DNA from: a virus
Lineage: Duplodnaviria > Heunggongvirae > Uroviricota > Caudoviricetes
Virus record (IMG/VR): IMGVR_UViG_2541047816_000002
DNA: 38,841 bases
Strand: one strand, 5' to 3'
Part shown: piece after piece, positions 23,360 through 23,587 of the stretch
How the letters are laid out: each line of letters starts with the position of its first letter
How positions within the stretch are numbered: the first letter of the stretch is position 1
Notes under the pieces: generated by a model
Told to the model about the DNA's origin: nothing
What the model saw: only the letters and a program-made list of their open reading frames with translations
Databases searched by the model: none
Position numbers and translations under genes: made by a program

Positions 23360-23371
23360 GGGCGGCGACCT
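23360..23371 (+). other. cosN cohesive-end sequence (12 nt GGGCGGCGACCT)
   Basis: gtgggtcctttccggcgatccgaccggttacg|GGGCGGCGACCT|cgcgcgttttcactatttatga closely matches recalled lambda genome ends. Confidence 0.75.
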
Positions 23372-23587
23372 CGCGCGTTTTCACTATTTATGAGATTTTT
23401 TGAGGGGGTGGTTGTTGTTTAATTGTTTGGTATATCTAATTGATAAGTAAGGTGAAAATAAAATAAATACAACAACCTTACGATGTGTTTTGATGTCGTC
23501 AATGCGAAAAATGTCAATGATATCAAATGGTTTTGCAAAAACACATGGTTGTTGTTTCGCTTTTTATCGATGACTTATGGAGAGGAG
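23372..23587 (+). promoter_or_regulatory. cosB-like region with three GGTTGTTGT repeats (23410-23420, 23465-23477 inverted, 23547-23557)
   Basis: Repeated motif between cosN and Nu1 start, consistent with small-terminase binding sites. Confidence 0.5.

What the first reader, a model, noticed from the sequence alone, without database searches (positions are those of the whole stretch)
23360..23587. Lambda-type cos with 12-nt cohesive end and three GGTTGTTGT repeats in cosB
The cosN flank and the 12-nt GGGCGGCGACCT match recalled lambda genome ends almost base for base. cosB carries two direct copies and one inverted copy of GGTTGTTGT, which are candidate small-terminase recognition elements and differ from the flanking lambda sequence I recall. 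Together with the IS-split terminase, this defines packaging specificity for the element.
Basis: partly seen in the sequence, partly recalled or inferred. Interest (0 to 1): 0.33.

Follow-up and report, generated by a model that had tools for sequence, protein, structure and literature searches.

The report
N15/Monarch-type lambda-like cos site
This is the DNA-packaging start site (cos) of a lambda-like prophage, and its three GGTTGTTGT repeats are binding sites for a phage N15-type small terminase; this layout is already described in the literature, so the finding is correct but ordinary.

Summary
GGGCGGCGACCT sits at 23360-23371, exactly at the lambda end junction. GGTTGTTGT occurs at 23410(+), 23469(-) and 23547(+), just upstream of the small terminase gene terS (23588-24094).

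The reading of the repeats as small-terminase recognition elements is supported. N15's mutationally defined terminase site R3 (bp 48-59, GAGGTTGTTGTT) contains the same 9-mer at the same distance from cosN. The window's TerS DNA-binding domain is 34/40 identical to N15 gp1, and its predicted recognition helix is identical.

The layout is R3, an A/T-rich spacer with a conserved TTGATAAGTAA (candidate IHF site), inverted R2, then R1. It copies lambda's cosB and fits the text description of the "Monarch" group of N15-like prophages (Feiss et al. 2015).

Across 105 related loci from several gamma-proteobacterial genera, the 9-mer always accompanies this TerS domain. In diverged complex cos sites, R3 and R2 are about as conserved as cosQ (0.96-0.98), while spacers (0.53-0.67) and the cohesive-end sequence (0.66) drift.

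The IS (ISEc10) splits the large subunit gene terL, not terS. It abolishes self-packaging but does not define specificity.

This is a known kind of site, present in about 220 complete E. coli genomes. Interest is low.

The parts
23330..23336 (+). cosQ (GGGTCCT), the packaging-termination subsite
   Evidence: It is identical to lambda. It is nearly invariant in 50 distinct related cos sequences, with mean pairwise identity 0.98 in 15 diverged sequences.
23360..23371 (+). cosN cohesive-end 12-mer GGGCGGCGACCT; the nicks are inferred before 23360 on the top strand and after 23371 on the bottom strand
   Evidence: It is an exact match to the lambda left end and aligns with the lambda right end/left end junction.
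23372..23409 (+). Conserved cosN-to-R3 spacer, containing CTATTTATGAGATTTTTTGA
   Evidence: 24/28 bases at bp 13-40 are identical to lambda. Mean pairwise identity among diverged relatives is 0.80-0.86.
23410..23418 (+). R3: GGTTGTTGT (cos bp 51-59), extended as GGTTGTTGTTTAAT
   Evidence: It is identical over 14 nt to N15 bp 50-63. N15 R3 (bp 48-59) was defined by block mutations (PMC4669245). Conservation is 0.96.
23433..23450 (-). Candidate IHF site I1: TATCAATTAGATA on the minus strand, with conserved TTGATAAGTAA at 23440-23450 and an A/T tract at 23453-23468
   Evidence: It is a one-mismatch match to WATCAANNNNTTR, which is not significant on its own. The block is conserved at 0.86 inside a spacer that averages 0.67. 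Its position matches lambda I1 between R3 and the inverted R2.
23469..23477 (-). R2: inverted GGTTGTTGT (cos bp 110-118)
   Evidence: Exact copy. Conservation is 0.97. The R3-to-R2 start-to-start spacing is 59 bp in all 48 sequences that have R1. Lambda R2 is at about bp 108-122 in the same inverted orientation.
23547..23555 (+). R1: direct GGTTGTTGT (cos bp 188-196)
   Evidence: Exact copy. It is present in 48 of 50 distinct complex cos sequences, with conservation 0.78. It is absent in two Pluralibacter-type sequences.
23588..24094 (+). terS (168 aa, Nu1 family), a mosaic of an N15-type winged-HTH DNA-binding domain and a PhiR12_2-type C-terminal half
   Evidence: Pfam Phage_Nu1 E=1.4e-21. 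Residues 1-40 are 34/40 identical to N15 gp1, and residues 81-168 are 90% identical to PhiR12_2 TerS. The model of residues 1-65 has pLDDT 83. Its best fold matches (E 4e-3 to 3e-2) include small-terminase-related entries, lambda gpNu1 1J9I and RppC 6HN7.
24066..25660 (+). terL 5' part (gpA ATPase domain and part of the nuclease domain), truncated at about codon 532 of 642
   Evidence: Pfam GpA_ATPase and a truncated GpA_nuclease (positions 3-223 of 294). The collinear alignment with intact terL of E. coli VR50 breaks at 25660.
25661..28072 (+). ISEc10 (IS21 family) insertion with istA and istB, flanked by the 4-bp duplication CCGA
   Evidence: RefSeq annotation of 99.8% identical copies. Pfam IstB_IS21.
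28073..28410 (+). terL 3' remnant
   Evidence: The alignment to VR50 terL resumes at 28073.

Best explanation
This is the cos site of an integrated lambda-like prophage, with N15-type packaging specificity and lambda-type (complex, 'Monarch'-type) architecture.

Proposed mechanism, by analogy with lambda: dimers of the TerS winged-HTH domain bind the GGTTGTTGT elements. R3 (23410) and the inverted R2 (23469) are brought together by a bend in the A/T-rich spacer, probably made by IHF at the conserved TTGATAAGTAA block. R1 (23547) acts as an accessory site. TerS bound at R3 positions TerL to nick cosN 12 nt apart, producing GGGCGGCGACCT 5' overhangs. Packaging then proceeds rightward into terS, terL and the head genes, and cosQ (23330) serves termination at the next cos.

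In this copy terL is split by ISEc10, so the prophage cannot cut or package its own DNA. The cos itself is intact and could only be used in trans by a terminase of N15/Monarch specificity.

Shown here: the sequence elements, their positions, their conservation, and their co-occurrence with the TerS domain. Shown by others for N15 only: the GGTTGTTGTT block is needed for packaging. Inferred: TerS binding to R2 and R1, IHF binding, the nick positions, and loss of function from the IS.
For: (1) The junction is identical to lambda's genome ends, and similarity to lambda stops at cos bp ~41, where cosB begins.

(2) GGTTGTTGTTTAAT at cos bp 51-64 equals N15 bp 50-63. Scrambling N15 bp 54-59 (GTTGTT) lowered the yield of a lambda-N15 hybrid phage about 100-fold, and scrambling bp 48-53 lowered it about 7-fold (PMC4669245).

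(3) TerS residues 1-40 are 34/40 identical to N15 gp1, with residues 15-26 (predicted recognition helix 18-23) identical. The model of residues 1-65 has its best fold matches to small-terminase-related entries, lambda gpNu1 (1J9I) and RppC (6HN7).

(4) Co-occurrence. In 25 loci from 25 species that share this domain, 24 have an exact GGTTGTTGT and all 25 a copy with at most one mismatch within 200 bp upstream of terS. There are 41 exact copies in 10 kb around the terS starts against 1 in 77 kb of flanks. PhiR12_2 has the same TerS C-terminal half but a different DNA-binding domain, and it carries different repeats (CCGGACATG) at the same places.

(5) Footprint in 15 diverged complex cos sites: R3 0.96, R2 0.97, cosQ 0.98 and R1 0.78, against spacers at 0.53-0.67. 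The R3-to-R2 spacing is fixed at 59 bp.

(6) Orientation and positions (+ at bp 51, - at 110, + at 188) parallel lambda's R3 (+, ~52), R2 (-, ~108) and R1 (+, ~153).

(7) The published text description of the Monarch group matches on every point that could be checked.
Against: There is no direct binding or cleavage evidence for this sequence or for any Monarch-type cosB. In the 50,697-record phage collection the only matches (N15, held under two accessions, and one Enterobacter phage) cover just the DBD-coding stretch; none has the tripartite cosB.

The IHF motif match has one mismatch, and such matches occur at chance frequency across the window (26 found, 31 expected). The block is not conserved in the most distant complex example, L010.

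R1 is missing in two relatives, so it may be dispensable.

Sequence identity with 'Monarch' itself could not be checked, because the original paper (PMC4461450) is not held and the figures are not available as text.

Fold-search E-values are modest (4e-3 to 3e-2).
Confidence: 0.88

Rival explanations
1. The repeats are binding sites for some other protein, such as a host factor or a phage regulator of late or terminase gene expression. On this view TerS recognises something else in cosB.
For: No binding data exist for this sequence. The repeats lie in the 5' leader of terS, where regulatory sites could sit.
Against: The 9-mer tracks the N15-type TerS DNA-binding domain across hosts as different as Escherichia, Pseudomonas, Halomonas and Aeromonas. 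It is replaced by another repeat when the domain is replaced (PhiR12_2). In N15 the same block is required for packaging by N15-specific terminase.
Confidence: 0.04
2. Only R3 is functional, as in N15. On this view R2 and R1 are non-functional leftovers or chance copies of a simple G/T-rich word.
For: N15 packages with R3 alone. R1 is absent in two relatives. Lambda R1 is only accessory. The word uses only two bases, and a fourth, evidently irrelevant copy exists at 23117.
Against: R2 is as conserved as R3 (0.97) at a fixed 59-bp spacing, while the spacer sequence diverges. R1 is retained in 48 of 50 distinct sequences, including an Aeromonadaceae MAG whose TerS is only 62% identical.
Confidence: 0.07
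3. The locus is the cos of a phage-inducible chromosomal island or other satellite that pirates a helper's terminase, not a prophage cos.
For: The element cannot make its own terminase, because terL is split. PICI cos sites share cosQ and cosN with lambda-like helpers.
Against: The cos is followed by a complete lambda-like head module: terS, terL, a head-tail joining protein, portal, S49 protease, decoration protein and major capsid. It is preceded by lysis genes. All of this is collinear at 97-98% with the intact VR50 prophage. PICI cosBs have only an R3 equivalent and an rpp gene. The IS insertion looks recent and private: no complete E. coli genome in the collection shows the same uninterrupted junction, and the one record covering at least 80% of the query (HSP60) matches in 3 pieces over ~4.5 kb, which is a different layout.
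Confidence: 0.01

Closest known systems
cosB of the 'Monarch' group of N15-like prophages (Feiss et al. 2015, Virology 482:260; PLoS One 10:e0141934)
   Same: Lambda-like 12-nt cohesive end. R3 strongly matching N15 R3. TerS recognition helix identical to N15's. Three R sequences with R2 inverted. A likely IHF site between R3 and R2. No rR2 inside terS. All of these were checked here against the paper's text.
   Different: Nothing demonstrable. Identity with Monarch's actual sequence could not be verified because its sequence and accession were not available. This copy has terL split by ISEc10.
Phage N15 cos (simple cosB)
   Same: The same R-site word (GGTTGTTGTTTAAT) at the same distance from cosN, within 1 bp. 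The same TerS DNA-binding domain (34/40 residues).
   Different: N15 has R3 only, plus a remote inverted rR2 inside gene 1. It has no IHF site, and terS starts at bp 89 rather than 229. The N15 cohesive end differs at bp 9 and 12 (GGGCGGCGTCCG). [quoted passage not shown]
Phage lambda cos (cosQ-cosN-I2-R3-I1-R2-R1)
   Same: Identical cohesive end and cosQ. About 88% identity across cosQ and cosN. The same number, order, orientation and approximate positions of R sites. terS belongs to the Nu1 family.
   Different: The R-site sequence is GGTTGTTGT rather than CGTTTCC(G/T)TTCT. The TerS recognition helix differs. R1 lies about 35 bp further from R2. TerS is only 36% identical.
Phage 21-type / PhiR12_2 cos
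   Same: The same tripartite idea. PhiR12_2 shares the TerL-binding half of TerS at 90%.
   Different: A different DNA-binding domain and different repeats (CCGGACATG).

Membership tests
Lambda-like cos (12-nt 5' cohesive ends) | A 12-bp cohesive-end sequence closely related to lambda's, at the junction of the right-end and left-end flanks | tested here: met
   12/12 bases are identical, and the flanks align with the lambda ends. The physical ends were not mapped.
Lambda-like cos (12-nt 5' cohesive ends) | The 7-bp cosQ (GGGTCCT) upstream of cosN at lambda's spacing | tested here: met
   23330-23336, starting 30 bp before the 12-mer as in lambda.
Lambda-like cos (12-nt 5' cohesive ends) | Nu1-family TerS and gpA-family TerL genes immediately downstream | tested here: met
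   Pfam Phage_Nu1, GpA_ATPase and GpA_nuclease. terL is interrupted by ISEc10.
N15 packaging specificity | An R3 matching N15 R3 (bp 48-59, GAGGTTGTTGTT) at about bp 50 from the cohesive end | tested here: met
   GGTTGTTGTTTAAT at bp 51-64 against N15 bp 50-63.
N15 packaging specificity | A TerS recognition helix identical or near-identical to that of N15 gp1 | tested here: met
   Residues 15-26 (GISVQAFDKWGV) are identical, and 34/40 residues match over the domain.
N15 packaging specificity | The DNA is packaged by N15-specific terminase and not by 21-specific terminase | not testable with these tools
   This needs a helper-packaging experiment like those in PMC4669245.
Complex ('Monarch'/lambda-type) cosB | Three R sequences in the order R3-R2-R1, with R2 inverted | tested here: met
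   + at 23410, - at 23469, + at 23547. The arrangement is conserved in 48 of 50 distinct relatives.
Complex ('Monarch'/lambda-type) cosB | An IHF binding site (I1) between R3 and R2 | tested here: inconclusive
   There is a one-mismatch consensus match at 23433-23445(-) with a 5' A/T tract and a conserved TTGATAAGTAA block. The motif frequency in the window is at chance level, and binding was not tested.
Complex ('Monarch'/lambda-type) cosB | Absence of the remote rR2 copy inside terS that marks the simple N15 type | tested here: met
   There is no copy with at most one mismatch in 23588-24094. Nine of 25 genome loci carry an exact copy there, and several more a one-mismatch copy.
Nu1-type winged helix-turn-helix DNA-binding domain | An N-terminal beta-alpha-turn-alpha-wing-alpha fold like gpNu1 1-68 | tested here: met
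   The model of residues 1-65 has pLDDT 83 and the elements E4-6, H7-14, H18-23, E30-32, E35-39, H40-54. Foldseek best hits are 7LWR/7LW0, 1J9I (gpNu1) and 6HN7 (RppC), with TM about 0.6-0.68 and E 4e-3 to 3e-2. A sequence search of PDB found nothing.

The most novel reading that the evidence does not exclude
The intact N15/Monarch-type cos in a prophage whose terL is knocked out by an IS could act as a hitch-hiking packaging origin. A co-resident or superinfecting phage of the same specificity would then cut it and package the prophage's right arm and adjacent host DNA, or be interfered with in doing so. More broadly, the GGTTGTTGT / TerS-domain pair appears to be an ancient, very widely shared recognition code. 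It runs from Escherichia to Pseudomonas and Halomonas and is freely recombined with at least 8 different cohesive-end sequences and with different TerL-binding domains. That spread is far wider than the roughly ten (pro)phages in which it was originally described.
Probability: 0.15. Interest if true: 0.35.

Novelty: already known. Interest (0 to 1): 0.12.

Why it matters
It assigns the prophage's packaging module to a known class: lambda-type cohesive ends with N15/Monarch cosB specificity. It predicts which helper terminases could act on it. N15-specific terminase should work. Whether lambda terminase can use this three-site cosB is untested; by published work it cannot package N15 DNA.

It shows that the element is packaging-defective because of the IS in terL, not because of a damaged cos.

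The comparative data add modest support to the published but experimentally untested idea that R2, R1 and an IHF site function in the Monarch-type cosB. They also show that the N15 recognition word is much more widespread than first reported.

Tried and rejected
A PDB sequence search with TerS found no hit at E<=0.01.

A fold search with the full-length single-sequence model (pLDDT 65) was dominated by the poorly modelled helical C-terminus and gave meaningless cytochrome c' hits. It was repeated with residues 1-65.

The original N15/Monarch paper (PMC4461450) is not held. A second paper that mentions 'Monarch' refers only to a DNA purification kit.

The IHF consensus scan is uninformative on its own: 26 matches against 31 expected.

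The first repeat-significance simulation was inflated by overlapping homopolymer words and was redone with non-overlapping copies.

Rfam shows no RNA family in 23100-23600.

The fourth GGTTGTTGT at 23117 was rejected as part of cosB because lambda has it too.

The one-mismatch cosN-like word at 11542 has no cos context and was treated as chance.

The PICI/satellite reading was rejected on gene content.

Full report
**Observation.** GGGCGGCGACCT occurs once, exactly, at 23360-23371. GGTTGTTGT occurs exactly at 23410(+), 23469(-) and 23547(+). A fourth exact copy sits at 23117. The window holds 4 exact copies against 0.43 expected, and 0 of 100 shuffles reach 4. Only 0.3% of composition-matched simulated 228-nt regions contain any 9-mer in three non-overlapping copies. 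The finding ends one base before the ATG of the small terminase gene at 23588.

**Lambda junction.** I placed the lambda right end (L002) next to the lambda left end (L001) and compared the pair with the window.
- The 12-mer is identical.
- 28 of the 30 bases from cosQ (GGGTCCT, 23330-23336) to the nick are identical.
- 24 of 28 bases at bp 13-40 are identical.
- Similarity then drops to 18/40.

blastn against 50,697 phage records gives about 88% identity to lambda-like phages over 23100-23400. No hit extends beyond about 23400. Lambda homology stops where cosB begins.

**The repeats.** Phage N15's left end reads ...GAGGTTGTTGTTTAAT..., with GGTTGTTGT at bp 50-58. The window has GGTTGTTGTTTAAT at cos bp 51-64. 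According to Feiss et al. (PMC4669245), N15's critical TerS site R3 spans bp 48-59. Scrambling bp 48-53 (GAGGTT) lowered the yield of a lambda-N15 hybrid about 7-fold, and scrambling bp 54-59 (GTTGTT) lowered it about 100-fold. The window's repeat is thus the N15 R-site word at the R3 position.

**The protein.** terS (23588-24094, 168 aa) is a Nu1-family protein (Pfam E=1.4e-21).
- Its best full-length relative among deposited phages is N15 gp1 at 46% identity.
- The similarity is concentrated in the DNA-binding domain. 34 of the first 40 residues are identical, including residues 15-26, which cover the predicted recognition helix.
- The C-terminal half is instead 90% identical to the TerS of phage PhiR12_2. 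The gene is a mosaic of a specificity domain and a TerL-binding domain.
- A model of residues 1-65 (pLDDT 83) has the strand-helix-turn-helix-wing-helix order. Its best PDB matches are small-terminase-related entries (7LWR, 7LW0), lambda gpNu1 (1J9I), the PICI redirecting protein RppC (6HN7) and MerR-type domains. E-values are modest.

**Architecture.** The orientations and positions are + at bp 51, - at bp 110 and + at bp 188. They mirror lambda's R3 (+, ~52), R2 (-, ~108) and R1 (+, ~153). Between R3 and R2 lies an A/T-rich spacer with a one-mismatch IHF consensus on the minus strand (TATCAATTAGATA, 23433-23445) and an A/T tract 5' of it. The motif match alone is at chance level.

The PLoS One paper describes the 'Monarch' group of N15-like prophages in these terms:
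- a complex tripartite cosB analogous to lambda's
- R2 inverted
- an IHF site between R3 and R2
- R3 and the TerS recognition helix matching N15
- no rR2 copy inside terS

The window fits each of these points. No copy with at most one mismatch lies within terS. I could not compare with Monarch's own sequence because the original Virology paper is not held.

**Comparative test.** A scan of one genome per species with a TerS alignment returned 25 loci. They come from Escherichia, Trabulsiella, Pluralibacter, Erwinia, Aeromonas, Pseudomonas, Halomonas/Vreelandella, Oceanimonas and others.
- 24 of 25 loci have an exact GGTTGTTGT within 200 bp upstream of terS, and all 25 have a copy with at most one mismatch.
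- There are 41 exact copies in the 10 kb around the terS starts, against 1 in 77 kb of flanks.
- Most have the simple N15 layout: R3 plus an inverted copy about 200 bp downstream inside terS.
- A few have the complex layout.

Eighty further loci from viral contigs are mostly complex. PhiR12_2 is the converse case. It keeps the same TerS C-terminal half but has a different DNA-binding domain, and it carries CCGGACATG repeats in the same places.

I aligned 50 distinct complex cos regions. In 15 diverged ones the mean pairwise identities are as follows:

| Element | Mean pairwise identity |
|---|---|
| cosQ | 0.98 |
| R3 | 0.96 |
| R2 | 0.97 |
| R1 | 0.78 |
| TTGATAAGTAA block | 0.86 |
| Spacers | 0.53-0.67 |
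| 12-nt cohesive end | 0.66 |

At least eight different end sequences occur with the same cosB. R3-to-R2 spacing is 59 bp in every sequence that has R1. R2-to-R1 spacing is 78 or 66 bp. This pattern is what selection on protein-binding sites would produce. It supports function for R2 and, less strongly, for R1 and the IHF block.

**The IS.** Alignment with the intact prophage of E. coli VR50 shows ISEc10 (IS21 family, istA/istB) inserted at 25661-28072. It carries a 4-bp CCGA duplication. The insertion splits terL at about codon 532 of 642, inside the nuclease domain and upstream of the C-terminus. terS and cos are untouched and are 100% identical to those of at least 12 complete E. coli genomes. 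About 220 of 5,426 genomes carry the whole 761-bp segment. No complete genome in the collection shows the same uninterrupted junction: the one record covering at least 80% of the query (HSP60) matches in 3 pieces over ~4.5 kb, a different layout. The IS therefore explains a packaging defect, by inference. It has nothing to do with specificity.

**Mechanism.** The proposed mechanism is inferred from lambda and N15.
1. TerS dimers dock on R3 and the inverted R2 across a bend, probably made by IHF.
2. R1 adds affinity.
3. R3-bound TerS positions TerL to nick cosN.
4. Packaging runs rightward.
5. cosQ serves termination at the next cos.

Here it could only happen in trans.

**Rivals.** Three rivals were considered: another protein binds the repeats, only R3 is functional, or the locus is a satellite cos. 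Each is weakened by the co-occurrence, conservation and gene-content data above.

**Verdict.** The observation and its core interpretation are right. The system is an already described type and is common in E. coli prophages. What this work adds is comparative support for the accessory sites and a much wider host range for the N15 recognition word. No record in the phage collection carries the tripartite version. The only matches there (N15, held under two accessions, and Enterobacter phage MStein-2023a) cover only the DBD-coding stretch. The Monarch-type cosB therefore remains experimentally untested.

Noticed in passing
window 25661-28072 (duplications at 25657-25660 and 28073-28076): An ISEc10 (IS21 family) insertion in terL with a 4-bp CCGA target duplication. 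No complete E. coli genome in the collection shows the same uninterrupted junction; the one record covering at least 80% of the query (HSP60) matches in 3 pieces over ~4.5 kb, so the event looks recent or private.
   Followed up: partly
L088-L091, L094, L098, L009/L108, L010, L058/L060 (cos regions): The same N15-type cosB and an invariant cosQ are combined with at least eight different 12-nt cohesive-end sequences, for example GGGTCGGTGGAC, GGGCGACGTCCG, GGGTGCGTATAC and GGGCGTCGACCT. cosN and cosB therefore evolve or recombine as separate modules.
   Followed up: partly
L004 (PhiR12_2) 800-920; window 23588-24094: TerS is a mosaic. PhiR12_2 shares the C-terminal half at 90% but has another DNA-binding domain and three CCGGACATG repeats in its cosB. 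This is a natural domain swap that changes specificity.
   Followed up: partly
L008, L011-L030: The simple N15 layout (R3 plus an inverted copy about 200 bp downstream inside terS) recurs in prophages of Pseudomonas, Halomonas, Aeromonas, Oceanimonas, Erwinia and Trabulsiella. That is far beyond the handful of N15 relatives in the 2015 papers, which argues that rR2 is under selection.
   Followed up: partly
window 23117-23125: A fourth exact GGTTGTTGT lies upstream of cosQ, inside a YlcI/YnfO-family ORF (22967-23152, minus strand). The same word is present at the homologous place in lambda, so it is unrelated to this cosB specificity.
   Followed up: yes
window 4988-5459, 11840-12015, 16906-17152, 17232-17909: Rfam hits typical of lambdoid prophages: C4 antisense RNA, isrK, DicF, sok antitoxin, three tRNAs and two tandem STnc100 copies.
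   Followed up: no
L013 (contig CACSKA010000005.1, labelled Chryseobacterium sp. 18061): A lambda-like cos with GGTTGTTGT R3/R2 and an N15-type TerS on a contig assigned to a Bacteroidota genome. This may be contamination or mis-assignment; an unusual host is the less likely alternative.
   Followed up: no
window 11542-11553: GGGCGGCGAGCT is a one-mismatch copy of the cohesive-end 12-mer with no cos context. It is probably chance: 2 matches at up to one mismatch against 0.26 expected.
   Followed up: no
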